From positions 513,457 to 577,456 of the forward strand of contig OZ220675.1 of NCBI GenBank assembly GCA_965116325.1: a DNA stretch of 64,000 nucleotides, read 5' to 3'. The notes below the pieces were generated by a model. That model saw only the letters and a list, made by a program, of their open reading frames with translations. It was not told the DNA's origin and did no database searches. Origin of the DNA: Dehalococcoidia bacterium. Its GTDB lineage: Bacteria; Chloroflexota; Dehalococcoidia; Lucifugimonadales; JAGWBF01. Shown here piece after piece: positions 15,680 through 56,967 of this stretch. The stretch's first letter is position 1. Every line of letters starts with the position of its first letter. Made by a program: the position numbers and the translations under genes.

Positions 15680-15799
15680 GCCGAGTCCAGGGTGGCCCTC
15701 TGCGGGCAAACCGGCTAAACCTCCCCGTACTCCGCTGCGCAGGTTCCCGGCTTCTTCCTATGCTATAATCAGCGTCGCTTGTCAAGGGAGGACCGGGGG

Positions 15800-16198: not shown

Positions 16199-16616
16199 AG
16201 AGAGGGTCGCTCTCCCCGTCATCCAAAGAACTGTCACTAATGACCAGATTGCCAGCTACGCCGATGCGTCGGGCGACCGCAACCCCCTGCACCTTGACCA
16301 GTCCTTTGCCTCTCAGAGCCAGTTCGGGGGCGTCGTGGCCCATGGGATGCTCACACTGGCCTTCGTTTCGGAGATGCTCACAAGCGCTTTTGGGCGTCAC
16401 TGGCTGGAATCAGGCCGGTTGAAGGTGAGGCTGAAGGCCCCCGCCTACCCTGGCGATGAGGTATGCACCTGGGGTGAAGTGGTCAGGGAGGATGAGCAAG
16501 ATGGGACCCGTAAGGTGGTATGCGCAGTGGGCCTCAAGGATGCCCGTGACAGGGAGCTGATCGCAGGTGATGCCGTGGTGCATCTGCCCGCCCAAGAAGG
16601 TTCCAGCGGGAACTAG
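16191..16616 (+). CDS. MaoC-like (R)-specific dehydratase/hydratase, catalytic type (HadB-like)
   Basis: The hydratase-2 motif SGDRNPLHLD...VAHGM is intact. It overlaps the previous gene by 8 nt (ATGACTGA). Confidence 0.8.
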   Translation: MTEERVALPVIQRTVTNDQIASYADASGDRNPLHLDQSFASQSQFGGVVAHGMLTLAFVSEMLTSAFGRHWLESGRLKVRLKAPAYPGDEVCTWGEVVREDEQDGTRKVVCAVGLKDARDRELIAGDAVVHLPAQEGSSGN

Positions 16617-31300: not shown

Positions 31301-31626
31301 CGGAGCCAACACCGACTCGTCCCATAGATCCAACTCCTACGACCCCAGCAGATCCTGCAGACCAGATGGATTCAACCTCGGCGCATCCACCAAGTCCGAC
31401 TCCCCCGAGTCTCACAGAATCCCCAACTCCGAGATCCACCACCGATCTCCTTCAGGAGCAAACTCCGCCTCCCATCGCGCCCACTACCCCGCCGACGCCT
31501 TTCCAGGTGGGGCACCTTGAGGATCCGAGGGGTGGCAATCGCGTCTGGACCCTGGTCGGGGTACCATTAGCCATAGCGTTGCTGGGGATGATCTTCTTGA
31601 TATACCGGCGCAGCCTGAGACCGTAG
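22327..31626 (+). CDS. giant (3,099 aa) modular cell-surface protein with GLUG-repeat beta-helix-like modules, FN3, Calx-beta-like, cadherin-like (He_PIG/dystroglycan-type) and PKD-like domains, a PT-rich stalk and a C-terminal TM anchor
   Basis: A single uninterrupted ORF. It has an N-terminal signal-anchor (IVTSGALLVFLAALLYGSV) and GNGHTISNL plus VGGLVG (GLUG) repeats. Calx-beta-like endings (TGTDYTAIDETVTF, ESDETVVLKL, EIDEAFEVTL) and He_PIG-like units (LP.WLTFD...RTFSGTP) are present. The C-terminus reads VWTLVGVPLAIALLGMIFLIYRRSLRP. Confidence 0.9.
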   Translation: MQIRAGVDSPGWQFSFTAATHLRASGIVTSGALLVFLAALLYGSVKPPPTSAIHVQTPAFQTASGDLIDYDTDNDGLIEVASLTMLNAIRWDLDGNGESTHSGYSSAFPTPQSGMGCPTTGCSGYELTTDLDFDTNDDGVVDSSDDWWDSGSGWLPVGDGSSDTDSTRFNSTFDGNGHTISNLLIQRSSSLVGLFGSVGSSSHIRGLGLTDVSVSGHSSVGGISGYSAGKIEACYSAGAVRGTGNQVGGLVGHSEGSIVASYSSTDVVGNGRSSSIVGGLAGVASAGAGIKASYSTGSVSASGRESIQVGGLVGVSRVDVVASYSTSAVSAAAYVGGLVGEKGSGTITNSYWDTQTSGRSVGVGSDDLDFNGTLDPGETATSGVTGKTTTEMRSPTGYAGIYSGWNISTDDDSTTDDPWDFGADYNYPVLSVDFDGDSETAANWRDFGLQREPGPVGELAETLNDDGTIKVTWEAPTDLGSASTVTYQYRSSVDGGTSWDPNWTATTESSYTFTPDLNAAYVVEVRTVSGAAHPLGKASRFTTTAVTQRPGPTDATLAIVGDSASVAEGLSIGISVTLNRPAPSGGASVRWYVADGTTSPAGSATGDLAITESLDSESRYRAAIASGDSTATINIPASDDARVEPDTEHVLFIVDKVVIGEDETKSFNPSSNSVEFGINDTDTINLAISAQAQVREGTTGGPEPGSSQITVTATANPAATLDRSVQVRVVSDGGTATTGTDYTAIDETVTFNSGTVVGIGTGDSPSASVTTTNPLRPLADSVTESDETVVLKLASLSTAERAYDLGTTPPSTTVTILDDDDDARVISSFSIDNTNPMPEDGGSRTFTVILKEAANSALRIPVKVTLDGGSTAGKLALSCIQEQEACVNIATGDTSGTLVISSTGDDLVTGTQPVKATLKPPAEVSLKDGVSATISVDRLDDDHLTATLARSSYSVDEGNSIQVTVEVTAQDKNLARVASLQLQTSASNPESAGTGDYTALDRTIQLQTGDYTTSGMSFNVSINTNEDDLAEIDEAFEVTLRTGDSLVRLSGQTTSATITILDDDRATSVSGLTSNTGSLDEDAEETATITIALDGDAVSAATFGWVVSGQGIDTGDFTLAAGTDTTLTTTGDGLRGTVTVGAGRSSGLLTIDAMDDSADPTPESETLTFTLSSVPNGLGVPDNTSVSVSITDNDPIAISGSASLSLRHGDPQRDEPSSVVSEGDVVRARVSLSERLPVDVQVPLTLPDGNDITGDLAGKTQTTPIVVIASGDTTGTVSFLAQLDQVDENDETLTIGLGTPTYDTTRPVSGSLAIEGTGDLQINDVLVSFQTRNVTAGGGRQKLRTMTIDTGRNLANGDDNEVEVTFIVSSGDYEVAWRIQGQAADLTDKLSMDGTRTITLTTGDISSRTILLDLYVTPQPGASDPFEPAISITSVRIHEGQRSKELVPTAVAPNRAPGTPWLSAQTATEDQLFTYQFAEVVDPDGDMVTYTASSGDMNSLPIWLTFDTASRTFSGTPLEADTPASHTIRVTVRDASLSTFATFALSVLEVNDPPSALSLTDQFAEAGEMFSYTFPAMSDPEGSAVTYSAELEDGSSLPTWLTFNASSRTFSGTPGESDSGTLTIKVTASDGAMPTPGLSSSTFMLTVGTLIDYDTDDDGLIEVASLSMLSAVRWDLDGDGASANSDYLSAFPTPQSGMGCPVTGCSGYELTTDLDFDTNKDGTIGSGDDWWDSGSGWLPIGDGSSDSDATRFNATFNGNGHTISNLFIQRTIPLVGLFGSTGSLADIHNLALKDVNVSGQTGVGGLVGENQGKVSITYTTGRVSASRSYAGGLVGWNNGGSIAGSYSSSTMSGDTQVGGLVGLHGSGSMVACYSTGSVSSAGGQAGGLVGENRSSITACYSTGAVAGPVLVGGLIGTDQAGTISNSYWNEETSGISVGVGSDDTDGSGTVEATEPATSGVTGRTDASLRAPTAYAGLYSGWNVSIDEDAVADGPWDFGAPYNYPVLKMDFDGDPDTTPSWQEFGRQREPGPVSSLSASLGESGNIETAWSEPGDTGSGTLGSYRYRVSYDGAKTWGAWTETESKSYTIAVADSTAHSFEVRATSDAVHRLGAASFLGPPGPPVNLSLAPRDMHLVAAWDPPEEDGGAAVTGYVLQYRQGDSGAWTEMTLTGDASTLDIGSLANDQAYQVRIGAENIFGIGAFSPAETASAINSPPPTSPVQNQTATELQSFSYSIDDVTDPDGHQVSYSASLDDGTPLPAWLDFDEANRTFSGTPEDADTGSLAIRITATDDGTPPASSEVSFTLTVEDVNQAPAALSVEDQRAGAGLFFSYTITETTDPDSRDTLSYSAALADGTDLPIWLGFEINTLVFSGTATSGDAGTFNIVVKAIDDGTPPMSSEAAFTLEVIYNSPPSAPALSDQTATEGEEYVYTFPASTDEDNHSISYSALQSDGSPLPGWLTFDGVERTFRGTPLELDSPKRHRIKVKAMDDGWPDASSEREFELWVPEVDSPPIAVATAKLCPPSAQTWDDNSDELLVPEPDSPPIAGVIDQLCPPSVQTGDENSDPLRVNPKDIVILDGTGSHDPEGGTISYRWTQTDGPPVELFHPEPTDPWKSREAWFIARTQGTFVFKLEVREVDGKTYTSTSEAVVIVVEPIPPGPLPITFDSDTTPDQNYVVGRDVGMVQLPIATGGTGDLTYQLSPALPRGLAFDPVARTITGTPTELLERRLFTYTVIDQVGSEASLHFYVTVSAPIAVAKIDARGAVTIIAKAAGESDLTFAIEEETLHIRVKVDGNSIGSRLTLLAGPDWSNLALIEFSSIPAGDLINPAAPPGFRRLGELRFLNITLRDRDGLTIDRLDAPATICLAPRTGDGELIMLRYDGAESWSILANAVVTSLNGETFMCADSARLSTFAAGYAVPLPPPSPNPTPTPVGSQSDDGAPSPTPTPAPTAIPVLTPTPTPSVPVEQVEATPIPSPNPTPPGSTESVEQAEPTPTRPIDPTPTTPADPADQMDSTSAHPPSPTPPSLTESPTPRSTTDLLQEQTPPPIAPTTPPTPFQVGHLEDPRGGNRVWTLVGVPLAIALLGMIFLIYRRSLRP
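22525..23691 (+). repeat. copy 1 of a ~1.15-kb intragenic duplication (Ca-binding-like DxDxDG loops plus GLUG module)
   Basis: Protein segment LIDYDTDNDGLIEVASL...DGNGHTISNL...GLQREPGP. Long runs of nucleotide identity with copy 2 are seen in the first ~350 nt. Confidence 0.9.
27274..28419 (+). repeat. copy 2 of the intragenic duplication
   Basis: Protein segment LIDYDTDDDGLIEVASL...NGNGHTISNL...GRQREPGP, lying 4,749 nt downstream of copy 1 in the same frame. Confidence 0.9.
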
Positions 31627-40372: not shown

Positions 40373-41299
40373 ATGGTTGGGCCCAAGCTACAGGTTCTCA
40401 CCGTTTTCACCGTTGTTTGCATCTTTGCGCTGATAACCTTGGGAGGAGTGGTGAGGCTCACAGACTCGGGTCTGGGATGTCCGGATTGGCCTCTTTGCCA
40501 CGGCCAGCTTTTTCCACCCATCGAATATCATGCCCTCATCGAATACTCCCATCGTATGCTGGCTGCCCTGGTGGGTGTGCTGGTAGCAGCGCAGGCCTTC
40601 GTGGTCTGGCGTTGCCACAGGAATTATCGCTTACTGCTGACCCTTAGCTTGCTGGGGGTGGTGCTGGTCCTGTTTCAGGGCGCATTGGGCGGGATTACCG
40701 TCCTCACCGAACTGGCCGACGGCCTCGTCCTGGCTCATCTCGCAACCGCTGAAGCGCTGATTGCCTGCATGGTGCTGGCCAGCGCCCTGGCGCTGCAAGG
40801 CTCGCGCGGAGCGCAAGGAACGGATAGAGGCAGCGCGCGCCTGGCCGGCCTGCGGCGGATAACCCTGATCACCACAAGTATGGTGTACCTGCTGCTGATC
40901 TCCGGGTCCTACGTAACAGTGTCGGATGCAGCCATAGCTTGTGGAGAATCCTGGCCCCTTTGTGCCGGTAGTTTGGTCCCCGAGGGACACCTTGCATCGG
41001 TACACATGCTTCATCGACTGGTTACCCTGGTCGTCTCGGCCCTCGTGGCCGTCGTGCTGGTGAAGGCTTGGCGTCAGGGCAGGGAATGGGCCCACCTGAG
41101 GTGGACTGCCATGGCCCTGGCCGGATTGCTGGTGCTGCAAGTGGGCTTGGGCGCTGCCGTAGTTACGGGCGGGTTCGACACCGTTCTGCGGGCGACCCAC
41201 CTCTCCCTGGGGACACTGATGTGGGTATCCCTGGTTGTCTTGGCCATCATCGTGGTGATGGGAAGGCCAAGGGGAATGAAGGGGAGCGCCTATGCTTAG
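40373..41299 (+). CDS. ctaA: heme A synthase (COX15/CtaA)
   Basis: 308 aa with 8 TM helices. Blocks GGVVRLTDSGLGCPDWPLC, IEYSHRMLA and HMLHRL are present. Confidence 0.88.
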   Translation: MVGPKLQVLTVFTVVCIFALITLGGVVRLTDSGLGCPDWPLCHGQLFPPIEYHALIEYSHRMLAALVGVLVAAQAFVVWRCHRNYRLLLTLSLLGVVLVLFQGALGGITVLTELADGLVLAHLATAEALIACMVLASALALQGSRGAQGTDRGSARLAGLRRITLITTSMVYLLLISGSYVTVSDAAIACGESWPLCAGSLVPEGHLASVHMLHRLVTLVVSALVAVVLVKAWRQGREWAHLRWTAMALAGLLVLQVGLGAAVVTGGFDTVLRATHLSLGTLMWVSLVVLAIIVVMGRPRGMKGSAYA

Positions 41300-42233
41300 G
41301 CTGGGTCCCGACACCTCAACGCGAGCGTCTGCGCCGGCACAAGTGCTGTCCGTCCTCTCCGACTATGTGGCCCTGACCAAGCCTCCCATCGTAGCCCTGC
41401 TGCTGGTGACCGCCCTTGGAGGCATGTTCCTGGCGGCCCAGGGAGTACCGCCCTTGTCGGTGGCCGCCCTGTTGCTGCTGGGAGGAGCTAGCGCCGCAGC
41501 AGGGGCCAGCTCCATAAACCACTACCTGGACAGGGATGTCGATGGCATGATGCTCCGAACCAACCGCCGTCCCATTCCCGGCCGAAGGGTAAGTCCCGCA
41601 TCAGCCTTGGTTTTCGGTATCCTGCTGAACGTTTTCGCCTTTGCCCTCCTGGCATCCACGGTCAATGTGCTGAGCGCCTTAATCACTCTCGGCGGGACCC
41701 TGTTTTACGTGCTGGTTTACACCCTGTGGCTTAAGAGAATGACCCCGCAGAACATTGTCATAGGCGGTGCGGCAGGGGCCGTTCCACCCCTGGCGGGATG
41801 GGCAGCGGTTACCGGCGGTGTGGAGCTGCCAGCCCTGTACCTGTTCGGAATCATCTTCTTCTGGACGCCTCCCCATTTCTGGGCCTTGTCCCTGCTTATG
41901 AAGGACGACTACGCCAGGGCGGGTATCCCCATGCTCCCGGTGGTCTATGGCGACGCCGAGACCCGCCGGAACATATTTCTGTACACGATCATCCTGGTGG
42001 CCCTGACACTACTGCCCTTCAGCGTCCAGCAGGTAGGATGGATATACTTCACCTCTGCCGTTACCCTGGGAATCGTGTTCCTGTTATATACCGGGCACCT
42101 TGTCCGCATGGGGGAAGGCACATCCCGCAGAGATGCCACCCAGCGGGAGCGCCGGGTGTACCTGTTCTCATTGCTCTACCTGGCCCTTCTGTTTGCAGCC
42201 ATCATGATCGACACCACGGTAAACCTGGCATGA
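41292..42233 (+). CDS. ctaB: protoheme IX farnesyltransferase (heme O synthase)
   Basis: 313 aa. It has the UbiA-family motif NHYLDRDVDGMMLRTNRRP and the block FFWTPPHFWAL. It overlaps ctaA by 8 nt. Confidence 0.9.
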   Translation: MLRLGPDTSTRASAPAQVLSVLSDYVALTKPPIVALLLVTALGGMFLAAQGVPPLSVAALLLLGGASAAAGASSINHYLDRDVDGMMLRTNRRPIPGRRVSPASALVFGILLNVFAFALLASTVNVLSALITLGGTLFYVLVYTLWLKRMTPQNIVIGGAAGAVPPLAGWAAVTGGVELPALYLFGIIFFWTPPHFWALSLLMKDDYARAGIPMLPVVYGDAETRRNIFLYTIILVALTLLPFSVQQVGWIYFTSAVTLGIVFLLYTGHLVRMGEGTSRRDATQRERRVYLFSLLYLALLFAAIMIDTTVNLA

Positions 42234-42268
42234 AGACAACCGCTTTGAGAAATCCTGGAATATTGCCC

Positions 42269-42297
42269 TTGAAAGGGAAAGACTCCCTTGGTAAACT
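42269..42297 (+). promoter_or_regulatory. promoter-like TTGAAA-N17-TAAACT upstream of ctaC
   Basis: TTGAAA lies at 42269-42274 and TAAACT at 42292-42297, in the 153-nt ctaB-ctaC gap. Confidence 0.3.
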
Positions 42298-42386
42298 CTT
42301 AGCCGCAATGCGGCCCCATGACAGCACCTGCATTTACTCACGCCCGGCATCCACAACGGGAAGGGTAATCGATAAAGGAGACCCTG

Positions 42387-43493
42387 GTGATACCCAGACC
42401 GCTTAAGAGCAGGGGCATCCTTGCCCTCATAGCGCTGGCGGCCTTCCTGGTGCTGCTGAGCTGCAACCCGGCGGACAACCAGTCCACCTTTGAAGCGGCA
42501 TCCCCCGAAGCACAGAAACTGCTGGACCTATTGGCTATCATCGGCTGGGCGGCGGTAGCGGTCTTCGTGGTCGTTGAAGGAATCCTGATCTATGCGGTCA
42601 TTCGCTACGCCCGCCGGCGCAACGACAACACCATGCCGGCCCAGACCCACGGCAACACTCCCCTGGAGATCGGCTGGACCATCGCCCCTGCCATCGTCCT
42701 GGCGGTGATTGCCGTTCCCACCGTCATATACATATTCGACCTGGAATCCGAACCTCCTGCCGACTCCCTGAACGTGATAGTCACCGGCCACCAGTGGTGG
42801 TGGGAGTTCGAGTACCCCGAAGAGGATGTGATCACCGCCAACGAGCTTCGGCTGCCCGTCGAAAGGCCTGTACGCCTGCTGCTCCGGTCCGACGACGTCA
42901 TTCACAGCTTCTGGATACCGAAACTGGCCGGCAAGGTCGATGTGATACCTAACAACGAAAACAGGTTGAAGTTCACCCCCATAGAAACCGGCGAGTTCTA
43001 TGCTCAGTGTGCCGAGTTTTGCGGGGTAGCCCACTCCCACATGAGGTTCCGGGTGATCGTGGAAGAGCCCGAGGAGTTCGACGCCTGGGTGGCTAACTAC
43101 CATGAGCTGGCTTCCCGGCCGGCGCCCACCGGTGACTCTGATGAAGCCCAGGGCGCCCAGCTCTTTGCCAGCAGGGGATGCCTTCTCTGTCACGCCATCA
43201 ACGGCCCAGCCTCCGCAGAGGCCCGGCTCGCGCTGAAAGAGGGTTTCGAGAGGGGAGAGCTTCGATTCCCAGCCCCCAACCTCACCAACTTTGGGACTAG
43301 GGGAACCCTGGCGGCTGGGCTCCTGGACAACGACCTGGGTGGAGAGAACCTGAGGGCTTGGCTAACCGATCCCGACGATGTCAAGGAAGGGAATCGCATG
43401 GCCGAGCTGGCCACGGTCTACATCGACCCAGACTCCGAGTTGACGGCCCTGGAGATTTCCCAGTTGGCCTCCTACCTATTGAGCTTGAAGTAA
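42387..43493 (+). CDS. ctaC: cytochrome c oxidase subunit II with a fused C-terminal cytochrome c domain (caa3 type)
   Basis: The CuA site HSFWIP...CAEFCGVAHSHM and the C-terminal heme-c motif CLLCHAI are present. It has a GTG start after AAAGGAG and an N-terminal lipoprotein-like signal (LVLLSC). Confidence 0.9.
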   Translation: MIPRPLKSRGILALIALAAFLVLLSCNPADNQSTFEAASPEAQKLLDLLAIIGWAAVAVFVVVEGILIYAVIRYARRRNDNTMPAQTHGNTPLEIGWTIAPAIVLAVIAVPTVIYIFDLESEPPADSLNVIVTGHQWWWEFEYPEEDVITANELRLPVERPVRLLLRSDDVIHSFWIPKLAGKVDVIPNNENRLKFTPIETGEFYAQCAEFCGVAHSHMRFRVIVEEPEEFDAWVANYHELASRPAPTGDSDEAQGAQLFASRGCLLCHAINGPASAEARLALKEGFERGELRFPAPNLTNFGTRGTLAAGLLDNDLGGENLRAWLTDPDDVKEGNRMAELATVYIDPDSELTALEISQLASYLLSLK

Positions 43494-43572
43494 CGATGAG
43501 CCTTGAATCGAAACAGCGCAGACCTGCGGTGTTGAGCACGCAGAAAGAGGGAGGGTACTTCGGAGGTGAGCC

Positions 43573-45486
43573 ATGGTAACCCTTGGTAACGCCCTTAGTG
43601 GGGCATTGCGCCGTCCCACCAGCTACCACGGTGTGTGGAGCTGGATCACCACCGTCGACCACAAGCGCATTGGCATCCTTTACGGCGTCACGGCTTTCAT
43701 TTTCTTCCTGATTGCCGGCGTGGAAGCCCTGCTGATGCGCACCCAGCTAGCAAGGCCTGAGCAGGACATCGTCAGCCCCGAGGTGTTCAGCCAACTCTTC
43801 ACCATGCATGCGCTGACCATGATCTTCCTGGCCATCATGCCCCTCACAGCCGCCTTCTTTAACTTCATGATTCCCCTGATGATTGGGGCAAGGGATGTGG
43901 CCTTCCCCCGCCTGAACGCGCTGAGCTACTGGATATTTCTGTTCGGGGGCATCCTGCTGAACAGCGGATGGATCTTCGGAGGCTCCCCGAACACAGGGTG
44001 GTTCAACTACGCCAACCTGTCCGAGCAACCCTTCAATACGGGCACCGGCGTGGACTTCTACGTGGTCGGCTTGCTGGTCCTTGGAACAGCTTCCATGGCT
44101 GCAGCCTTCAACTTCATCGTCACCATTCTGAACATGCGCGCTCCCGGGATGACCCTGATGCGCATGCCGGTGTTCGTCTGGATGACCTTGGTGACCTCCT
44201 TCCTGATAATCCTGGCCTTTCCGGTGATCACCGTGGGCCTGATCGAGCTGCTGTTCGACCGGCAGTTCGGCACCGGCTTCTTCAATCCGGCGCTTGGCGG
44301 AGACCCGGTGCTCTGGCAGCACCTGTTCTGGGTGTTCGGCCATCCCGAGGTGTACATCTTGATCCTACCGGCAATGGGCATCATCTCGGAGATACTGCCG
44401 ACCTTCTCCCGCAAGCCCCTTTTTGGGTACACGGTTGTGGTCCTGTCGGGAATAATCATCGGCTTCATGGGTTGGGGTGTGTGGAGCCATCACATGTTCA
44501 CCGTCGGTCTGGGAGCTTGGTCTAACTCGGTTTTCAGCATCGCCACCATGGCCATCGCGATTCCGACAGGTATCAAGATATTCAACTGGATCGGCACCCT
44601 GTGGGGCGGGTCCATCAACATCAAAACTCCCTTGCTCTTTGCCGTGGGGTTTGTGTCCCTGTTCATCATCGGAGGCCTGAGCGGCGTGATGCACGCCTCG
44701 GCGCCCGCCGACGCCCAGCAGCAGGACACCTACTTCGTGGTCGCCCACATCCACTATGTGCTCTTCGGCGGAAGCATCTTTGCCATCTTCGCGGGCCTCT
44801 ACTACTGGTGGCCCAAGATGACCGGCAGGATGATGGACGACAACCTGGGCAAGCTGCACTTTTGGGCGATGATGATCGGGTTCAACGTGACCTTCTTCCC
44901 CATGCACTTCCTGGGCCTGCAGGGAATGCCCCGCCGGATACACACCTTCGATTCGGCCATGGGATGGGACCTGTGGAACATCGTTGCGACGGTAGGCGCC
45001 TTCTTCATGGCGGCTTCCATACTGATCTTCATACACAATGCGGTACGGAGCTTGAAGAAGGGCGAAATCGCCTCCAGCGATCCTTGGGATGGCAGGACCC
45101 TGGAGTGGTCCATACCGTCGCCTCCTCCCGTATACAACTTCGCCGAGATTCCCCAGGTGCATGGCTTGGATGCCCACTGGAGCAACAAGTACGGGGACGA
45201 TGGCCACTCAGCTCCGGTCCCGGTAGGGGGCGGGGCAGCGGGAGAAGAAGCGGTGGGCCATGAACACGCTGACGAGCACGGTGATGCGGGGCATGGGATT
45301 CATCTCCCGGGATTGTCTTACTACCCTGTGATGCTCGCCTTCGGGCTTGGAGTTGCCGGCTATGGACTGGTTTTCCACCAGACCCTTACCTGGGCTATGG
45401 CCATCGTCGGCCTGGGAATCGGGGTAGTCGCGGCCTACCTGTGGTCCTTCGAGCCTGCCGAGGAAGAGCATGATTCCGATGATTGA
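43573..45486 (+). CDS. ctaD: cytochrome c oxidase subunit I
   Basis: 637 aa. Blocks WFFGHPEVY-type (FWVFGHPEVYILILP), HHMFTVG and VAHIHYVLFGG are present, plus a C-terminal two-helix extension. Confidence 0.93.
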   Translation: MVTLGNALSGALRRPTSYHGVWSWITTVDHKRIGILYGVTAFIFFLIAGVEALLMRTQLARPEQDIVSPEVFSQLFTMHALTMIFLAIMPLTAAFFNFMIPLMIGARDVAFPRLNALSYWIFLFGGILLNSGWIFGGSPNTGWFNYANLSEQPFNTGTGVDFYVVGLLVLGTASMAAAFNFIVTILNMRAPGMTLMRMPVFVWMTLVTSFLIILAFPVITVGLIELLFDRQFGTGFFNPALGGDPVLWQHLFWVFGHPEVYILILPAMGIISEILPTFSRKPLFGYTVVVLSGIIIGFMGWGVWSHHMFTVGLGAWSNSVFSIATMAIAIPTGIKIFNWIGTLWGGSINIKTPLLFAVGFVSLFIIGGLSGVMHASAPADAQQQDTYFVVAHIHYVLFGGSIFAIFAGLYYWWPKMTGRMMDDNLGKLHFWAMMIGFNVTFFPMHFLGLQGMPRRIHTFDSAMGWDLWNIVATVGAFFMAASILIFIHNAVRSLKKGEIASSDPWDGRTLEWSIPSPPPVYNFAEIPQVHGLDAHWSNKYGDDGHSAPVPVGGGAAGEEAVGHEHADEHGDAGHGIHLPGLSYYPVMLAFGLGVAGYGLVFHQTLTWAMAIVGLGIGVVAAYLWSFEPAEEEHDSDD

Positions 45487-45569
45487 CGTCCCCAATTCCG
45501 CCAGGAAGGCCCAAGCCTAGTCATGGAGAAAGGTTAGAGTTGGAACATCCGACTGGACAAGGCCACTCT

Positions 45570-46247
45570 ATGGTCGAACAGACGACTACGGGGCTGAACC
45601 ATCGCAAGATGCTGATGTGGCTGTTCCTGGGGTCGGACTGCCTGTTCTTCGGCTCCCTGATAGCCACCTATCTCATCTACCGGGGAGAAAGCCTCGTTGG
45701 TCCCTTCCCCGAGGATGTGTTCAGCATTCCGGTCACCACAGTGAGCACCTTTGTGCTCCTGATGAGCAGCATGTCCATGGTGCTGGCCTACTCGGCCATC
45801 AACCGGGGCAACATGCGGGCTTTCCGCGTATGGCTGTTGTCCACCTGTTTGCTGGGCGCCACCTTCCTGGGCTTTCAGACCTTCGAGTTCTACGAGTTTG
45901 CCAACCATGAGAGGACCGTCGAGTGCCAGCCCGGCTCCCAGGTGCCCGAATGCCTGGCAGGAGCAGAGAAGTACAAGGAAGATTACGGTCTGACTCCCCA
46001 GACGAACCTGTTCGGCACCACCTTCTTCACCCTGACCGGCTTCCACGGCGCCCACGTGACCGTTGGTGTGATCTGGCTGCTGTCCATCGTCGGCTACTCC
46101 TTCATAGGGGGCAGGAGAGCCCAGCGGGTGCTCACCGACAGGCAGGCCCTGAGCGTCGACCTTGCAGCCCTGTACTGGCACTTCGTGGATATCGTCTGGA
46201 TCGTCATCTTTGCAGTCGTCTATCTGATTGGAGTCGGAGTTAACTAG
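45570..46247 (+). CDS. ctaE: cytochrome c oxidase subunit III
   Basis: Blocks FFTLTGFHGAHVTVGVIWL and YWHFVDIVWIVIF are present. I prefer the start ATG 45570 (MVEQTT...); the track ORF begins at TTG 45483. Confidence 0.88.
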   Translation: MVEQTTTGLNHRKMLMWLFLGSDCLFFGSLIATYLIYRGESLVGPFPEDVFSIPVTTVSTFVLLMSSMSMVLAYSAINRGNMRAFRVWLLSTCLLGATFLGFQTFEFYEFANHERTVECQPGSQVPECLAGAEKYKEDYGLTPQTNLFGTTFFTLTGFHGAHVTVGVIWLLSIVGYSFIGGRRAQRVLTDRQALSVDLAALYWHFVDIVWIVIFAVVYLIGVGVN

Positions 46248-46290
46248 CGCACCGTGATGGGAAACGTGATAACTGACCAGAGGAACACAA

Positions 46291-47436
46291 ATGGCGCATA
46301 GCCAAGGGCACAGTGAGGGAGCGCACCCGACGGCCGCTACCTACATCAAGGTAGCCCTCACGCTGGCGGTGCTGACAGCCATAGAATTTGGTGTCTTCTA
46401 CCTGGAGATGCCGAACCTGGTGCTGATTACCGTCTTCCTCCTCCTTTCCCTGGTCAAGTTCGCCCTTGTGATCCTCTTCTACATGCACCTGAAGTTCGAC
46501 AGCCGCCTGTTCTCAGGGGTGTTCATCGGAGGCTTGGTACTGGCGATTGCCGTGTCCATAGCCCTCATGGCCATATTCCAGGTGCTGGACACCCTGGCCA
46601 ATCCTTCCGAGCCGGATGGGACAAATGGTGTAGTTGTTGGACCTACGCCCACCCCGACGGAGCCGCCAGATGGCCCGGAGTGCGCACCCGACGACCGGAT
46701 TTGCCAGGGTCAGCAGCTCTTCCTCAACGTCCCAGCCAGTGCTGCTCCCCAGGCCCTGTGGTGCAGCCAGTGTCATGCCCTCGGCGACATCGCCAACGGG
46801 GCGATTGGTCCCGACCTGACCAATATCGCCGTCGATGCTGAAACCCGTAGGCCAGGGATGTCCGCCGAGGAGTACATCCGGGAGTCCATCAGGGAGCCGG
46901 AAGCCTTCCTGTGCGAAGTTGAGCTCTGCACCCAGGGGCTGATGACAGCCTCCGTTACCGGCGGCCTGACCGACGAGGAGGTAGACCTTCTGGTCGAGTT
47001 CCTGATGAGCGCTACGGCCGCCGACGCGACGCAGGCTCCCGTTGTGGACGTCATGGTCCCCACTACCCCCGTAGATACCCCCACCGACTCGCCTGCGCCG
47101 GCAGGAGGCCTCGTGGCCGAAGGCCAAGCCCTGTTCATGAGCGCACCTCCCAACGTGGGTCCTCAAGCCCTCTGGTGCTCCGAGTGCCACGCCATAGAGG
47201 GGCTCGCCAACGGACTCATTGGCCCAGACCTGACCAACATCGGCTCCCTTGCTGCGTCCCGAAAGCCGGGCACCTCAGCCGAAGATTACCTGGTTGAGTC
47301 CCTGCGTAATCCCGACGGGTTCATTCCCGACGGCGTGGAGCGCGCAACACCCGGCCTCATGACTCTTGCCATCGTCCAGGACCTGACCGACGAGCAGGTG
47401 GAGGCGCTGGTGGCCTTCCTGCTAGCCCAGCAGTAG
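46291..47436 (+). CDS. caa3-type oxidase subunit IV fused to two c-type cytochrome domains
   Basis: The N-terminal ~105 aa match prokaryotic COX4 (YIKVALTLAVLTAIEF...LVKFALVILFYMHLKFD). A PT linker follows, then two homologous domains, each with CxxCH (CSQCH, CSECH) and the pattern GPDLTNI...PGLM. Confidence 0.85.
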   Translation: MAHSQGHSEGAHPTAATYIKVALTLAVLTAIEFGVFYLEMPNLVLITVFLLLSLVKFALVILFYMHLKFDSRLFSGVFIGGLVLAIAVSIALMAIFQVLDTLANPSEPDGTNGVVVGPTPTPTEPPDGPECAPDDRICQGQQLFLNVPASAAPQALWCSQCHALGDIANGAIGPDLTNIAVDAETRRPGMSAEEYIRESIREPEAFLCEVELCTQGLMTASVTGGLTDEEVDLLVEFLMSATAADATQAPVVDVMVPTTPVDTPTDSPAPAGGLVAEGQALFMSAPPNVGPQALWCSECHAIEGLANGLIGPDLTNIGSLAASRKPGTSAEDYLVESLRNPDGFIPDGVERATPGLMTLAIVQDLTDEQVEALVAFLLAQQ

Positions 47437-47505
47437 GAGCGGTGGAGGGTTCCCGGTGCCCGTTAATGAACTGCTCCGCCCATGCATCTCTGTAGCTGAG
47501 CTACG

Positions 47506-48444
47506 ATGATACTTCTCCAGGTAGCAGACTTTTCCTGGACCCAGTGGCATGCCCACCCCAGCATAATCCTGGGCCTGCTTGCCTTCGGGGGAGCCTACCT
47601 CCTTGGTGTGGGGCCGCTGCGCCAGCGCTACCGCTTGGGCCCTCCAGCGGAAGGGTGGCGGGTCTCGTTGTTCCTGCTGGGCGTGCTGGTGCTGATGGCA
47701 GCCCTGCTCTCCCCCATCCACGATCTGGGCGAGCGATACCTCTTCAGCTTTCACATGCTCCAGCACATGCTGCTCATGCTGGTCTTTCCGCCCCTGGTGC
47801 TCATCAGCACCCCGCCGTGGCTGCTCCGACCCTTGCTGAGGAATCCCACGGTGAGGAACGCAGCTTCCTTCGTTACCAGGCCGGTAGCGGCCTTCCTGAT
47901 ATTCAATGCGGTCCTGGTGTTCTGGCACGTCCCTGGGCTGTACGACCTGGCCTTGCGGGAACGAAACATTCACATACTCGAGCACATCACCTTTATGGGA
48001 GCGGCGGTGCTGATGTGGTGGCCGGTCCTCAGCCCCATGCCAGAGCTGCCCAGGGCGCCGTACATCGGCCAAATGGCCTACCTGTTCATGGTTCCAACCG
48101 TCTCAGCTATTTTGGGAGCATTCATCACCTTCTCCGAGTCGGTGTGGTACGATTGGTACGCTGAAGCTCCCCGCATATGGGAGATATCAGCCAAGACAGA
48201 CCAGGAGATCGGGGGTCTGCTCATGTGGGTCCCCGGGGGCGCTGTGTTTATGGCATCCCTGATCATCGTGTTCCTGGTCTGGGCAAGCAGGTCCGAATCC
48301 GATGACAGCGCCCGCGTTAGCATCGAAGCAGGGGACACCCCTACAGGAGGCCAAGGAGCGTCCTACATACAGGCTTCCGGTCCGGAGCCGGGGAGCCAAA
48401 TTGGAACCGATCTTGGGTCGAGTACGACCAGGGAGGCTTATTGA
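47506..48444 (+). CDS. ctaG: cytochrome c oxidase assembly factor CtaG (Caa3_CtaG family)
   Basis: 312 aa and polytopic. Blocks HMLQHMLLMLVFPPL, FWHVPGLYD and HILEHITFMGAAVLMWWPV are present. Confidence 0.85.
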   Translation: MILLQVADFSWTQWHAHPSIILGLLAFGGAYLLGVGPLRQRYRLGPPAEGWRVSLFLLGVLVLMAALLSPIHDLGERYLFSFHMLQHMLLMLVFPPLVLISTPPWLLRPLLRNPTVRNAASFVTRPVAAFLIFNAVLVFWHVPGLYDLALRERNIHILEHITFMGAAVLMWWPVLSPMPELPRAPYIGQMAYLFMVPTVSAILGAFITFSESVWYDWYAEAPRIWEISAKTDQEIGGLLMWVPGGAVFMASLIIVFLVWASRSESDDSARVSIEAGDTPTGGQGASYIQASGPEPGSQIGTDLGSSTTREAY

Positions 48445-48641
48445 TGAAACCAACAACCATGGCCGCGCTGCTCCCTATCATGGCAGCTATTTTCATAGTC
48501 CTCTGGGGCGGCGCCTTGGGCGTCGTATTCATTCTGTTGTACAAGACCCCACTGCATGAGTGGGGCCCGGTGATCCTCGGCATGGCCCTGGTTATCGGGA
48601 TACCGGCTGTCGCCGGGCTGCTCGCCAAGGACCGCGGCTAG
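48444..48641 (+). CDS. small two-helix membrane protein translationally coupled to ctaG
   Basis: ATG 48444 overlaps the ctaG stop (TGATG), and GGGAGG lies 8 nt upstream. The 65-aa product has two hydrophobic helices. Confidence 0.55.
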   Translation: MKPTTMAALLPIMAAIFIVLWGGALGVVFILLYKTPLHEWGPVILGMALVIGIPAVAGLLAKDRG

Positions 48642-48673
48642 ACTGGGCCCGAAGTGTTCTCTCCTACAGGCCT

Positions 48674-49354
48674 ATGCTTCTGAAGGCTACGCTCCTTGCC
48701 GCCGCGCTCATCCTCACCGTGGCGGCATGCGGCGAAGACCCTTCCTTCCAGGGAAACACTCTCAACGTTGAGCAGGCGCCCGACTTCCGCCTCAGGGACC
48801 AAAACAACACCGAGGTTGCCCTGTCCGACTTCCGGGGAAAGGTTGTGGCCCTGACCTTCCTGTACACCTACTGCCCAGAGATCTGCCCGGGCATCGCCGA
48901 GACCATCAGAAAGGCGTCTGAGCTCCTGGACGCCGAAGCAGAGCAGGTGCAGTTCCTGGCCGTCAGCGTGGACCCTGAGCGAGACACGGTGGATTCGGCA
49001 CTCAACTACAGCAGGGACACCGGCCTGCACGACCAGTGGAGATTCCTGGTAGGCACCCAGGAGGAGCTGGAGCCAGTGTGGAAGGCCTACTGGCTGGACC
49101 CGTCGGTGGACACTTCGGTGGGGTACCAGATCGTGCACCTCCACGAGGACGGAGAGCTGCACTTGCACGAGGTGGATGGCGGGAGCGGCGTCAGTACCGG
49201 CGACCTGAAGGTTGTACGCGAAGGTCCGCTGATCTCTCACTCAGCCCCGGTGTTTTTGATCGATAGGGACGGCAACCGGCGGGTGCTGTTGAACGACATT
49301 ACGCTGGACCCGGCGCCCCTGGTCCACGACCTGCGCCTTCTGCTGGACGACTAG
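48674..49354 (+). CDS. SCO1/SenC family copper chaperone / thiol-disulfide oxidoreductase lipoprotein
   Basis: ATG 48674 gives MLLKATLLAAALILTVAAC (lipobox). It has the Trx fold with the CxxxC copper motif YTYCPEICP and a downstream His. Confidence 0.85.
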   Translation: MLLKATLLAAALILTVAACGEDPSFQGNTLNVEQAPDFRLRDQNNTEVALSDFRGKVVALTFLYTYCPEICPGIAETIRKASELLDAEAEQVQFLAVSVDPERDTVDSALNYSRDTGLHDQWRFLVGTQEELEPVWKAYWLDPSVDTSVGYQIVHLHEDGELHLHEVDGGSGVSTGDLKVVREGPLISHSAPVFLIDRDGNRRVLLNDITLDPAPLVHDLRLLLDD

Positions 49355-55269: not shown

Positions 55270-55308
55270 CCCCACATCTTGGGGCACTCGGAGGACCGGT
55301 GGCAATGC

Positions 55309-55863
55309 TTAGTTCGATCGATCCCGGCTGAATCTCCGGCGCCACAGAAACTGGGCCCCTCTGATGCTAGCAAGCATCAGGAGTACGGCAGCTTCCACCA
55401 GGAGCCGGGCCAGCCCTAACGCTGCCTCAGCTAGAAGGAAATAGATGTTCCAGCGGCCCCATCGGTATGCGGTAAACCGCTCCCGATAGATGGCACGCAC
55501 CTGGCGGGACGCCCTAGTGCGCTGTGTCTCATCACTGAAGCGGGACTGGTGAATAGGGGACGACGGAATGCTGCCGTCGGGCGGTAGAAGCCTCCAGTAA
55601 CGGCTTCGAAACTCTTCGTCGGACTGAATCCCTTTGCGCATGTTGCACTGGGTGCATAGAAGCTGAAGGTTTCCGATATCGTCCCCACCACCCCCGGAAG
55701 CCGGATACATGTGATCAATCTCCAGGTACTTCATACGATGGGTGTACCCACAATAGAAACACTTTCCCTTCTGGGCCATAAAGAGCTTGTTCTTCACGCT
55801 CCAGGGAATGACGGGCCTGCCCGAATCTTCGTGGTATTTCTGGAGCTCTTCTTCCTGCGCCAT
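55309..55863 (-). CDS. HNH endonuclease domain protein with a C-terminal hydrophobic/amphipathic helix
   Basis: 184 aa. The HNH core is KCFYCGYTHRMKYLEIDHMYPASGGGGDDIGNLQLLCTQCNMRKG. The C-terminal sequence is IYFLLAEAALGLARLLVEAAVLLMLASI. Confidence 0.8.
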   Translation of the reverse strand: MAQEEELQKYHEDSGRPVIPWSVKNKLFMAQKGKCFYCGYTHRMKYLEIDHMYPASGGGGDDIGNLQLLCTQCNMRKGIQSDEEFRSRYWRLLPPDGSIPSSPIHQSRFSDETQRTRASRQVRAIYRERFTAYRWGRWNIYFLLAEAALGLARLLVEAAVLLMLASIRGAQFLWRRRFSRDRSN

Positions 55864-56087
55864 CCCGATTCTCGGACATAGGGCTTACTACTGAATTGTT
55901 GGGCTGTCCTCCCAACCTAGTGGTTCACCTATGCTTTAGGAAGATTATATTGCTGATGGCTTGGCCTCCTCCAGCCCGGTGGGCAGAGAGCGGAAGGGCG
56001 TTTGATTAGTTCGGGCGGGCCATGCTACCATCGCCCAGAGCAGGCAGCGCCTTCCTCAGGTTGACTTGCGAAAGACAGGAGCCCGAC

Positions 56088-56300
56088 ATGCAGCTCCCCA
56101 TCGTATATACGCTCATCAATTGAGAAGCCAGCGACAAGCTGCGCCAGTCGTGGATTGGGCAGGGAATGGCATTCGAGGAACGCAGGGTGGACCAGAGCCA
56201 GGAATGGCTGGATGAGCTGCTCAACTACTCGGATGCATCGCCAACCGTAATCTACCCCGACGGACGGGTTGAGATCGGCTTCGAGGGTCACGTCGGGTGA
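56088..56300 (+). CDS. glutaredoxin/NrdH-like small redox protein with an in-frame TGA (56121-56123) at the catalytic-Cys position: candidate selenoprotein, alternatively a pseudogene
   Basis: It is not in the ORF track because the TGA splits the frame. AGGAG (56077-56081) lies 6 nt upstream of ATG 56088. The translation is MQLPIVYTLIN-U/stop-EASDKLRQSWIGQGMAFEERRVDQSQEWLDELLNYSDASPTVIYPDGRVEIGFEGHVG. The third-position G/C bias is maintained on both sides of the TGA. Confidence 0.5.
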
Positions 56301-56373
56301 GCGCTGGCCTAGGTCGGCGGTGCCGGCCCCAGGACGAGACCAACCCTCAAGTTCCACCACAGAAGGAGGAAAC

Positions 56374-56967
56374 ATGACCAGCGAGACCAGCGTGGTAACA
56401 CCCGAAAGGTTCGCCCAAGGTTTCACCTATCCTAACTACATCGCCCAGATCAACATCAACAAGAACTGGTTTGAGAAGTTGTACGACTCCTTTCAAGTGG
56501 AGTCCGACGATGCCGAGTTTTTCCGAATGGCGGTCAGCCTTCCCAACGGCCCGGCCAAGATGATGGTCGTCGGCGAAGACTGGTGCCCCGATGTTTACCG
56601 CGGAATGCCCGTCATGGCCCGTATAGCAGAGGCTGCCGGGATGGAGATGCGGGTGTTCCCCCGGGACGCCAACATGGACATCATGAACGAGTTCTTGAAG
56701 GAGGGGAAGTGGGCTTCGATCCCCGCGGTCGTTTTCTACTCGGCCGACCACGAGTACCTGTGCCACTGGATAGAGCGGCCGTCCCTGGCCGAGAAAGAGA
56801 TGGAGTCCATTTCCGCCCAGGTCAAGAGCGAGATGCCCAACGCATCGGAGCAGGAGATACGGGCGGCGGCCAGGCCCCGTAACCAGGAGCGTTTCCCCGC
56901 TTGGCAGCAGGAGTCGGTTAAGGAGATACGCCGGCTGCTGGCGGAATCTCTAAACATCCAGGGCTGA
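56374..56967 (+). CDS. thioredoxin-fold protein (Thioredoxin_9-like) with a single-Cys WCPDV motif
   Basis: ATG 56374 follows GAAGGAGGA. The block MMVVGEDWCPDVYRGMPVMARIAE resembles thioredoxin-family proteins, but the second active-site Cys is Val. Confidence 0.75.
   Translation: MTSETSVVTPERFAQGFTYPNYIAQININKNWFEKLYDSFQVESDDAEFFRMAVSLPNGPAKMMVVGEDWCPDVYRGMPVMARIAEAAGMEMRVFPRDANMDIMNEFLKEGKWASIPAVVFYSADHEYLCHWIERPSLAEKEMESISAQVKSEMPNASEQEIRAAARPRNQERFPAWQQESVKEIRRLLAESLNIQG

What the first reader, a model, noticed from the sequence alone, without database searches (positions are those of the whole stretch)
56077..56300. Unannotated glutaredoxin-like ORF broken by TGA exactly at the catalytic-cysteine position: candidate selenoprotein
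The six-frame track shows nothing on the + strand here because an internal stop splits the frame. Reading from ATG 56088 (AGGAG at 56077-56081, 6-nt spacer) gives MQLPIVYTLIN-[TGA 56121-56123]-EASDKLRQSWIGQGMAFEERRVDQSQEWLDELLNYSDASPTVIYPDGRVEIGFEGHVG-stop (56298-56300). The G/C-rich third-position bias of this genome continues on both sides of the TGA. The layout is that of a small glutaredoxin/NrdH-type thioredoxin fold. It runs beta1 (IVYT), three residues, the redox residue at the N-cap of helix 1, a basic helix, G-x-x-F-E-E-x-x-V-D, then P-T-V...DG..I.GF. The TGA falls where the first Cys of CxxC sits, which would give a U-E-A-S motif. TGA is one substitution from TGC or TGT, so the alternatives are Sec recoding or a nonsense mutation (pseudogene). 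Two mutually exclusive stem-loops lie where bacterial SECIS elements are normally found. One is 56128-56153 (CCAGCGAC/GTCGTGG, 7 bp with one bulged G, 11-nt loop). The other is 56144-56158 (CCAGUC/GAUUGG, 6 bp including one G-U, GUG loop). I cannot score either without tools.
Basis: partly seen in the sequence, partly recalled or inferred. Interest (0 to 1): 0.78.

Follow-up and report, generated by a model that had tools for sequence, protein, structure and literature searches.

The report
Glutaredoxin-like gene with two selenocysteines
The "broken" small redox-protein gene is very probably intact: it appears to encode selenocysteine at two TGA codons (one was mistaken for its stop), and it belongs to a lineage of a known selenoprotein group that databases mis-annotate.

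Summary
ATG 56088 opens a glutaredoxin-like frame with an in-frame TGA (56121-56123) at the first Cys of the CxxC motif.

The Sec reading is strongly supported. In 80 Dehalococcoidia/Chloroflexota species representatives, 40 carry TGA at this column (38 UxxS, 2 UxxC) and 40 carry Cys (all CxxC). None has TAA or TAG. Codons on both sides are under purifying selection. A covarying hairpin follows the TGA only in TGA-bearing genes.

The "stop" at 56298-56300 is TGA in 81/81 sequences, always after Gly. Three conserved codons (A-L-A or E-I-G) follow, then a variable true stop (window TAG 56310-56312). A second covarying hairpin (56312-56328) comes next. The product is therefore 74 residues with Sec12 and Sec71.

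NCBIfam places the protein nearest the UXX-star glutaredoxin-like selenoproteins, but below every cutoff and with a three-residue tail. A single-Cys Thioredoxin_9 gene lies on the same strand in all 81 genomes, directly downstream in 80. Related genomes contain tRNA-Sec and Sec-containing SelD. Two of them are among the ten most selenoprotein-rich bacteria in BSepDB. The window itself holds no Sec machinery.

Verdict: a real selenoprotein gene and a new member of a known kind.

The parts
56077..56081 (+). Shine-Dalgarno-like AGGAG, 6 nt before the start codon
   Evidence: Read directly from the sequence.
56088..56312 (+). Full coding sequence of the glutaredoxin-like double selenoprotein (74 aa): MQLPIVYTLIN-U-EAS...GFEGHVG-U-ALA-stop
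   Evidence: Translation. The N-terminus matches homologues (M-x-x-[IL]-P-[IV]-V-Y-T). Pfam Glutaredoxin and NCBIfam Uxx_star are the best hits.
56121..56123 (+). First in-frame UGA = Sec12, at the first Cys position of CxxC (U-E-A-S)
   Evidence: TGA in 40/80 species representatives and TGC/TGT in the other 40, never TAA/TAG. It aligns with the catalytic Cys of solved Grx/NrdH-like proteins.
56144..56158 (+). SECIS-like hairpin 1 (CCAGUC / GUG loop / GAUUGG). In the window RNAfold extends it by CUGC 56139-56142 paired with GCAG 56159-62, with G56143 bulged
   Evidence: On 32 Sec-type sequences: 91.1% of cells paired, 4/7 pairs with compensatory changes, covariation 0.469 versus <=0.094 for slid controls. 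The same columns in 32 Cys-type genes: 46% paired, 0.095. Window fold.
56298..56300 (+). Second in-frame UGA = Sec71 (G-U-A-L-A-stop), previously read as the stop codon
   Evidence: TGA in 81/81 sequences and always preceded by Gly. With U written as C, it aligns to profile position 68/70 of NCBIfam Uxx_star. That should be the U of U-X-X-stop if the model ends at the last residue.
56301..56309 (+). Three-codon C-terminal tail A-L-A
   Evidence: Always exactly three codons. EIG class: 3100 synonymous versus 0 non-synonymous pairwise codon differences. A-class: 240 versus 32.
56310..56312 (+). True stop codon (TAG)
   Evidence: An in-frame stop at this position in 81/81 sequences. Its identity varies (TGA 59, TAG 19, TAA 11 among 89 distinct sequences).
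56312..56328 (+). SECIS-like hairpin 2 (GGUCGGC / GGU loop / GCCGGCC), starting at the last base of the stop and lying in the 3' UTR
   Evidence: RNAalifold on 36 sequences gives 7 pairs, all with compensatory double changes. The loop starts at nt 21-23 after the U of UGA in 82/89 sequences. Only 4/89 have a T-tract after it.
56374..56967 (+). Thioredoxin_9-family gene with a single-Cys W-C-P-D-V motif; conserved downstream partner
   Evidence: Pfam PF14595, E=1.5e-26. Same strand in 81/81 genomes and directly downstream (26-224 nt) in 80/81, always with motif W-C-[GP]-D-[VA].

Best explanation
Window 56088-56312 encodes a 74-residue glutaredoxin-like protein with two selenocysteines. Sec12 replaces the nucleophilic Cys of the CxxC active site (U-E-A-S). 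Sec71 sits on a short C-terminal tail (G-U-A-L-A-stop).

Each UGA is followed by its own stem-loop. One lies inside the coding region with its loop 26 nt after UGA-1. The other spans the true stop and the 3' UTR with its loop 18 nt after UGA-2. By analogy with the bacterial SECIS mechanism, each hairpin would recruit SelB-GTP-Sec-tRNA(Sec) to the ribosome so that UGA is decoded as Sec instead of terminating. This step is inferred.

The protein is a divergent relative of the UXX-star glutaredoxin-like selenoproteins. It is very probably co-expressed with the single-Cys Thioredoxin_9 protein encoded downstream.

Proposed chemistry (inferred, not shown): the tail Sec acts as a mobile redox centre that exchanges with the N-terminal site. 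That would be a Sec12-Sec71 diselenide in U-x-x-S forms and a selenenylsulfide with the CxxC pair in Cys forms, much as the GCUG tail of thioredoxin reductase works. It would pass reducing equivalents to or from the lone Cys of the Thioredoxin_9 partner or its substrate.
For: Shown:
- Cys/Sec pairing at the active-site column in 80 species, with TGA only.
- The terminal TGA is invariant in 81/81, with a fixed three-codon tail under purifying selection and a true stop of variable identity.
- Purifying selection acts upstream of UGA-1: 1898 synonymous versus 403 non-synonymous differences at codons -8 to -3.
- Hairpin 1 covaries and is specific to TGA-type genes. Hairpin 2 covaries at 7/7 pairs and occurs in both gene types.
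- TGA terminates 11/44 long ORFs in the window, so there is no genome-wide reassignment.
- The fold is Grx-like.
- NCBIfam Uxx_star is the best hit, and the tail Cys (standing in for Sec) aligns to profile position 68/70.

Sec trait in relatives:
- tRNA-Sec scores 68.9 bits, next to the homologous gene in L077.
- L038 and L044 are the two Dehalococcoidia genomes listed with 46 and 49 selenoprotein genes in BSepDB Table 2 (PMC13326102).

Partner gene: conserved in 81/81 genomes.
Against: - No selA, selB, selD or tRNA-Sec lies in the 64-kb window. The rest of this genome could not be read, and selA and selB were not seen in any relative.
- Neither hairpin matches an Rfam model.
- Hairpin 1 in the window is only 6 bp with one G-U pair.
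- NCBIfam scores are below every curated cutoff (33.8 versus 66).
- Pfam Glutaredoxin is marginally below its gathering score for the window protein.
- The structural model is of a Cys-type proxy with mean pLDDT 66 and lacks the tail, so proximity of the two Sec residues is untested.
- There are no expression or protein data.
Confidence: 0.88

Rival explanations
1. The gene is a pseudogene, or the TGA is an assembly error: a nonsense mutation of TGC/TGT in a glutaredoxin gene.
For: TGA is one substitution from TGC/TGT. Gene callers split or truncate the gene in every public record.
Against: The same TGA occurs in 40 species-level genomes spanning 57-96% protein identity, including independent long-read chromosomes. 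No TAA or TAG, and no other disabling lesion, is seen apart from one 2x-coverage contig. Both sides of the TGA are under purifying selection. A covarying hairpin accompanies the TGA.
Confidence: 0.01
2. The first TGA is a genuine stop. Only the C-terminal 44-58 residues are made, from an internal start, as current gene calls assume.
For: An ATG (Met26) exists downstream in the window. Public gene calls start there or at nearby TTG/CTG codons.
Against: Met26 is Ile in most homologues, and the called starts differ between lineages. The upstream PIVYTL strand, the SD site and the ATG are conserved at the protein level with mostly synonymous change. A fragment lacking strand beta1 and the active site would not form the fold.
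Confidence: 0.03
3. UGA is read through by something other than Sec, such as near-cognate Trp or Cys insertion or a lineage-wide UGA reassignment.
For: The window contains no Sec machinery. The identity of the inserted residue was not measured.
Against: TGA ends 11/44 long ORFs in the window and is the true stop of most homologues of this gene. The UGA column pairs specifically with Cys. Position-specific hairpins accompany the UGAs. tRNA-Sec and Sec-type SelD occur in relatives. Published selenoproteomes exist for L038 and L044.
Confidence: 0.03
4. Only the first TGA encodes Sec. The TGA at 56298-56300 is the real stop, and the downstream hairpin is a terminator or regulatory element between the two genes.
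For: The hairpin lies in an intergenic region, where terminators or attenuators are common. The tail is only three codons long.
Against: The codon is TGA in 81/81 sequences, while the next in-frame stop varies among TGA, TAG and TAA. There are always exactly three codons between them. The EIG tail shows 3100 synonymous and 0 non-synonymous differences. Only 4/89 sequences have a T-tract. The position aligns to profile position 68/70 of the UXX-star models, where the U of U-X-X-stop is expected. The hairpin sits at SECIS-like spacing.
Confidence: 0.05

Closest known systems
UXX-star glutaredoxin-like (seleno)proteins (NCBIfam NF041212; families 1-3: NF041114, NF041211, NF047338). Family 1 is 'Distant Grx-like protein 1', listed with UxxT and 2 Sec in the review PMC13188914, citing Zhang & Gladyshev 2008 and Haft & Tolstoy 2025
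   Same: A roughly 70-residue glutaredoxin-like domain. Sec lies a few residues before the true stop, so its SECIS must lie beyond the stop. Family 1 also has a second Sec in an N-terminal U-x-x-T/S-type motif. These are the best NCBIfam hits, and the tail Sec aligns to profile position 68/70, where the U of U-X-X-stop is expected.
   Different: Scores are below every curated cutoff (33.8-47.5 versus 66, and <=34.9 versus 72-100). The tail is U-x-x-x-stop (three residues) in 81/81 sequences rather than U-x-x-stop. The N-terminal site is U-x-x-S or C-x-x-C, not U-x-x-T. The lineage is Dehalococcoidia, with an obligate Thioredoxin_9 neighbour. The primary UXX-star paper was not available to me, so finer comparison was not possible.
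Selenoprotein glutaredoxin Grx1 of Clostridium/Alkaliphilus oremlandii OhILAs (Kim et al. 2011, cited in PMC13188914). PDB 7c10/7c13 'cGrx1' are the best sequence and fold matches; that these entries are the same protein is my recollection
   Same: A small Grx fold with Sec at the active-site U/CxxC/S motif. Closest solved structures by profile (E=1.2e-4) and by Foldseek.
   Different: Only about 20% identity. That protein has a single Sec, no C-terminal Sec tail, and a C-terminal helix that the model here lacks.
C-terminal Gly-Cys-Sec-Gly tail of animal thioredoxin reductase (from general knowledge; an analogy only)
   Same: Sec lies on a short flexible C-terminal tail preceded by Gly. It is thought to shuttle electrons between a buried dithiol site and an external thioredoxin-fold partner.
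   Different: It is an unrelated flavoenzyme that uses a eukaryotic SECIS. No homology is implied, and the analogy is untested here.
NrdH-redoxin / YruB-type / mycoredoxin small glutaredoxin-like proteins (TIGR02194, TIGR02196, TIGR02200)
   Same: Similar size, beta-alpha-beta-alpha-beta-beta core and CxxC position.
   Different: All scores are far below cutoff (<=32 versus 85-90 bits). Those families contain no Sec and no tail.

Membership tests
Bacterial selenoprotein gene (SelB/SECIS-dependent UGA recoding) | In-frame UGA aligned with Cys in homologues (Sec/Cys pair) | tested here: met
   UGA-1: 40 TGA versus 40 TGC/TGT among 80 species. UGA-2 is invariant TGA, so it has no Cys pair within this family, but it aligns to profile position 68/70 of the UXX-star models.
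Bacterial selenoprotein gene (SelB/SECIS-dependent UGA recoding) | Stem-loop shortly downstream of the UGA, with the apical loop about 16-37 nt away and containing G (bSECIS criteria as I recall them from Zhang & Gladyshev 2005) | tested here: met
   Hairpin 1 has loop GUG 26 nt after the UGA, covaries and is specific to TGA-type genes. Hairpin 2 has its loop 17-19 nt after the UGA, mostly GUU/GGU/GGC/GGA, with 7/7 pairs covarying. No Rfam model matches. bSECISearch itself was not run.
Bacterial selenoprotein gene (SelB/SECIS-dependent UGA recoding) | selA, selB, selC (tRNA-Sec) and selD present in the same genome | not testable with these tools
In relatives carrying the same gene: tRNA-Sec in L077; Sec-containing selD in L035 and in L105, on a contig of the same length as L028's chromosome; L038 and L044 are classed as Sec-utilising, with 46 and 49 selenoprotein genes, in PMC13326102. 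selA and selB were not seen directly.
Bacterial selenoprotein gene (SelB/SECIS-dependent UGA recoding) | Selenium actually incorporated into the product | not testable with these tools
   Requires 75Se labelling or mass spectrometry.
Glutaredoxin (Pfam PF00462) | HMM score at or above the gathering threshold | tested here: not met
   The window protein (U written as C) scores 21.4 bits against a cutoff of 22.9. Most full-length Cys-type homologues carry a precomputed PF00462 hit.
Glutaredoxin (Pfam PF00462) | C/U-x-x-C/S active site at the N-terminus of helix 1 in a thioredoxin fold, plus a cis-Pro loop (TVP) | tested here: met
   The profile aligns tvCpaC with CPHC of 7c10. The model gives beta1(6-9)-alpha1(14-26)-beta2-alpha2-beta3-beta4 with the motif at residues 13-16 (pLDDT 66). 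A TVP/SP-T-V loop is conserved. Foldseek returns only Grx, NrdH and mycoredoxin structures, though weakly (best E=2.8e-3).
Glutaredoxin (Pfam PF00462) | Glutathione-dependent activity | not tested
   No test was possible. The nearest relatives (NrdH, mycoredoxin, BC3987) are not glutathione-dependent, so this should not be assumed.
UXX-star glutaredoxin-like (seleno)proteins (NF041212, NF041114, NF041211, NF047338) | HMM score at or above the curated cutoff | tested here: not met
   Window full-length product: 33.8/66, 22.5/72, 30.3/100 and 23.0/97 bits. The best homologue scores 47.5/66.
UXX-star glutaredoxin-like (seleno)proteins (NF041212, NF041114, NF041211, NF047338) | Sec followed by exactly two residues and the stop (U-X-X-*) | tested here: not met
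   Here the pattern is U-x-x-x-* in 81/81 sequences. The Sec itself aligns to profile position 68/70, where the U of U-X-X-stop is expected.
UXX-star glutaredoxin-like (seleno)proteins (NF041212, NF041114, NF041211, NF047338) | A roughly 70-residue glutaredoxin-like domain, optionally with a second N-terminal Sec (family 1: UxxT, 2 Sec) | tested here: met
   The alignment covers profile positions 2-68/70. The window protein has an N-terminal U-x-x-S. The review table lists family 1 with UxxT and 2 Sec.

The most novel reading that the evidence does not exclude
This may be a distinct 'U-x-x-x-stop' family of glutaredoxin-like selenoproteins confined to Dehalococcoidia (including SAR202-type genomes) and not yet described or modelled. 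It would form an obligate two-gene module with a single-Cys Thioredoxin_9 protein. Its active-site Cys has been converted to Sec at least four separate times. Each conversion gained a new in-frame SECIS, and each was accompanied by loss of the resolving Cys (C-x-x-C to U-x-x-S). That pattern would point to an intramolecular diselenide between the active-site Sec and the tail Sec as the working redox couple.
Probability: 0.4. Interest if true: 0.6.

Novelty: new member of a known kind. Interest (0 to 1): 0.5.

Why it matters
- **Annotation.** Every public gene call for this family is wrong. The 43-57-aa 'hypothetical proteins' and the 71-aa 'glutaredoxins' all miss one or both Sec codons, and current NCBIfam models do not capture the family.
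- **Evolution.** The family offers a natural experiment. Closely related genes differ only in Cys versus Sec at the active site. A SECIS hairpin appears inside the coding sequence, and the resolving Cys is lost, each time Sec is adopted. This bears on why organisms pay for Sec and how SECIS elements arise within coding sequence.
- **SECIS position.** The second element is a clear bacterial example of a SECIS lying beyond the stop codon.
- **Ecology.** Two genomes that carry this gene are in BSepDB's top ten for selenoprotein gene count. The window's caa3 oxidase cluster suggests an aerobic lifestyle.

Tried and rejected
- **Rfam.** Gathering thresholds on the whole window and E<=10 on 55900-56500 gave no SECIS or other RNA family hit.
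- **tRNAs.** ARAGORN found none in the window.
- **Window genes.** Pfam on 30 long ORFs found no selA, selB or selD.
It is 76% paired, but only through conserved bases, with no compensatory change. Rejected.
- **Other TGA-interrupted ORFs.** A scan of the window's intergenic gaps found nothing convincing.
- **selA probe.** tblastn with E. coli SelA written from memory, against 1.74 Mb of related flanks, gave no hit. The SelD probe hit L035.
- **L077 neighbourhood.** No selA or selB lies beside its tRNA-Sec.
- **Structure prediction.** I modelled a Cys-type homologue instead, at moderate confidence and without the tail. The distance between the two Sec residues could therefore not be assessed.
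- **Literature.** Haft & Tolstoy 2025, the primary UXX-star paper, is not held. BSepDB supplements are not held. No paper combines 'selenoprotein' with 'SAR202'.
- **Genome-wide UGA reassignment.** Rejected from stop-codon usage.

Full report
**1. The observation**

AGGAG lies at 56077-56081 and ATG at 56088. TGA lies at 56121-56123, followed in frame by EASDKLRQSW...GFEGHVG and a second TGA at 56298-56300. With U written as C, the protein gives a borderline Pfam Glutaredoxin match (E=2.9e-4, 21.4 bits against a cutoff of 22.9). A profile of the family aligns its tvCpaC with the CPHC/CPPC active sites of small solved glutaredoxin and NrdH-like proteins (7c10, 3zij). The TGA therefore sits exactly at the nucleophilic Cys position.

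An AlphaFold model of the closest full-length Cys-type homologue (P0001, 68% identical in the BLASTP local alignment) has modest confidence (pLDDT 66). It shows beta-alpha-beta-alpha-beta-beta with the motif at the N-cap of helix 1. Foldseek returns only Grx, NrdH and mycoredoxin structures, weakly (best E=2.8e-3).

**2. The first TGA is conserved and paired with Cys**

A search of 5.8 billion proteins found two groups. There were 53 near-full-length homologues of 70-75 aa; all that I aligned carry C-P-A-C or C-x-x-C. Eleven shorter gene calls of 43-57 aa cover only the C-terminal part. I fetched the DNA for six of the shorter calls. In each case the truncation is caused by an in-frame TGA at the same column, and the upstream PIVYTL peptide is intact.

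A scan of one genome per species returned 80 loci, all Dehalococcoidia or Chloroflexota MAGs, one of them labelled SAR202. The tally is 40 TGA (38 U-x-x-S, 2 U-x-x-C) and 40 Cys (all C-x-x-C). TAA and TAG never occur.

Codons upstream of the TGA are under purifying selection: 1898 synonymous versus 403 non-synonymous pairwise differences at codons -8 to -3. This rules out a pseudogene, an assembly error and an internal-start product.

The window is collinear with L025 and L027 at about 86% DNA identity. It therefore comes from a related but distinct Dehalococcoidia species that carries the identical arrangement.

**3. The hairpin after the first TGA**

Counting from the U of UGA as position 1, columns 23-29 pair with columns 33-39 around a GUG loop.

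| Set | Cells paired | Pairs with compensatory change | Covariation score |
|---|---|---|---|
| 32 distinct Sec-type sequences | 91.1% | 4 of 7 | 0.469 (slid controls <=0.094) |
| 32 Cys-type sequences, same columns | 46% | 3 of 7 | 0.095 (same as slid controls) |

Best-hairpin energies also differ between the two types (-9.3 versus -6.2 kcal/mol, Mann-Whitney p=1.4e-6). One Sec subclade (L019, L020, L038, L044) instead uses a shifted UCCUGG-GGUCR-CCAGGG hairpin.

**4. The "stop" is a second Sec codon**

NCBIfam's best hits, all below cutoff, are to the 'Uxx-star family glutaredoxin-like (seleno)proteins'. That prompted a check of the gene's end.

- The TGA at 56298-56300 is TGA in 81/81 species-level sequences, Cys-type and Sec-type alike, and is always preceded by Gly.
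- It is always followed by exactly three sense codons and then a stop.
- The tail peptide is conserved (E-I-G or A-L-A), with 3100 synonymous and 0 non-synonymous pairwise differences in the EIG class and 240 versus 32 in the A class.
- The following stop varies (59 TGA, 19 TAG, 11 TAA).
- Only 4 of 89 sequences have a T-tract after the hairpin.
- A 5-9 bp hairpin starts 13-16 nt after this UGA in most sequences. RNAalifold finds 7 pairs, all with compensatory double changes. In the window it is 56312-56318 paired with 56322-56328 with loop GGU, and it begins at the last base of the true stop TAG 56310-56312.
- With the tail included, the second Sec aligns to profile position 68 of 70 of the Uxx_star model. 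That is where the U of U-X-X-stop should lie if the model ends at the last residue.

The product is therefore 74 residues: MQLPIVYTLIN-U-EAS...GHVG-U-ALA.

**5. Is UGA recoded specifically, and is the machinery there?**

TGA terminates 11 of the 44 long ORFs in the window, and it is the true stop of most homologues of this gene. There is therefore no genome-wide reassignment.

The window has no tRNA, no Rfam hit and no selA, selB or selD. I could not read the rest of the genome. In relatives that carry the same gene I found the following:

- L077 has a tRNA-Sec (RF01852, 68.9 bits against a gathering score of 47) 68 nt upstream of its homologue.
- L035 has selD (TIGR00476, 380 bits) about 2 kb away, with an in-frame TGA at its catalytic Cys position.
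- SelD homologues sit on contigs whose lengths equal those carrying L028, L034 and L009. For L028 I fetched the locus (L105).
- L038 and L044 are, by name, the two Dehalococcoidia genomes in BSepDB's top-ten table, with 46 and 49 selenoprotein genes. [quoted passage not shown]

selA and selB were not seen directly.

**6. Context and evolution**

A Thioredoxin_9 (PF14595) gene lies on the same strand in 81/81 genomes and directly downstream (26-224 nt) in 80/81. It always has a single-Cys W-C-[GP]-D-[VA] motif, whatever the Sec/Cys state of the Grx-like gene.

On a neighbour-joining tree, the N-terminal site switched between Cys and Sec at least four times. Sec is always accompanied by Ser at +3, except in L034 and L037 (U-x-x-C).

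**7. Mechanism**

- Shown: two conserved, position-specific UGA codons, each with a covarying downstream stem-loop, in a Grx-like frame.
- Inferred from the established bacterial mechanism: each hairpin serves as a SECIS that recruits SelB with Sec-tRNA(Sec).
- Inferred chemistry: the tail Sec is a mobile redox centre that exchanges with the N-terminal site. This would be a diselenide in U-x-x-S forms and a selenenylsulfide with C-x-x-C in Cys forms. It would also exchange with the lone Cys of the Thioredoxin_9 partner, in analogy with the GCUG tail of thioredoxin reductase (an analogy from general knowledge). The repeated loss of the resolving Cys when Sec is gained fits this model but does not prove it.

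**8. Comparison with what is known**

Sec-containing glutaredoxins and 'Grx-like' selenoproteins have been known since 2005-2011. The UXX-star glutaredoxin-like families are listed in the 2026 review PMC13188914, including a two-Sec family 1 with UxxT.

The present family shares the design. It nevertheless fails every curated NCBIfam cutoff, has a three-residue rather than two-residue tail, and has U-x-x-S or C-x-x-C at the N-terminal site. I therefore class it as a new, unmodelled member of a known kind.

**9. Verdict**

The finding is extended to a double selenoprotein with two SECIS-like elements and a conserved partner gene. Interest is moderate. It is a solid correction to annotation and a good evolutionary system, but not a new principle.

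Noticed in passing
L077:7818-7910 (+): A tRNA-Sec gene (Rfam RF01852, 68.9 bits; ARAGORN anticodon tca) lies 68 nt upstream of the Grx-like gene of this SAR202-labelled MAG. That is an unusual direct adjacency of selC to a selenoprotein gene. No selA or selB lies nearby.
   Followed up: partly
L035:12003-13061 (-) and L105:7881-8951 (+): SelD in these Dehalococcoidia genomes is itself a selenoprotein, with an in-frame TGA at the catalytic Cys position (SHCAG*AAKFSP and LANCAG*AAKFS). Public gene calls truncate it to about 316 aa. In L035 it lies only about 2 kb from the Grx-like/Thioredoxin_9 cassette.
   Followed up: partly
window 56374-56967 (+): The Thioredoxin_9-family gene has a single-Cys W-C-P-D-V motif. 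It is a same-strand neighbour of the Grx-like gene in 81/81 genomes and lies directly downstream in 80. NCBIfam has no model that hits it.
   Followed up: partly
window 55276-55962 (HNH ORF 55309-55863, - strand): A roughly 690-bp segment encoding an HNH endonuclease (PF14279/PF01844) is inserted about 125 bp upstream of the selenoprotein gene. It is absent from the otherwise collinear L025 and L027 (about 86% DNA identity). It is probably a mobile HNH element.
   Followed up: partly
window 22327-31626 (+): A single 3099-aa ORF ending in TAG. I did not examine it.
   Followed up: no
window 40373-49354 (+): A complete caa3-type cytochrome c oxidase cluster (CtaA, CtaB/UbiA, COX2, COX1, COX3, COX4 with cytochrome c, CtaG, SCO1/SenC). 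It indicates an aerobic lifestyle for this Dehalococcoidia genome.
   Followed up: no
L034 and L037 (redox codon near 10034): These are the only two species with U-x-x-C at the N-terminal site (Sec with the resolving Cys retained). They may be intermediates between C-x-x-C and U-x-x-S.
   Followed up: no
L019, L020, L038, L044 (nt 28-45 after UGA-1): This Sec subclade lacks the GUG-loop hairpin. It has instead a UCCUGG-GGUCR-CCAGGG (in L020, GUC-loop) hairpin a few nt downstream, consistent with an independently evolved SECIS.
   Followed up: partly
L018:2900-2940: A 2x-coverage long-read contig has a 1-nt insertion just upstream of the TGA that shifts the PIVYT frame. This looks like a sequencing error rather than biology.
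   Followed up: no
window 15779-16240 (+): A 139-aa ORF in an otherwise unassigned gap ends in TGA, with a 13-codon extension to the next stop. It shows no evidence of recoding and I did not pursue it.
   Followed up: no
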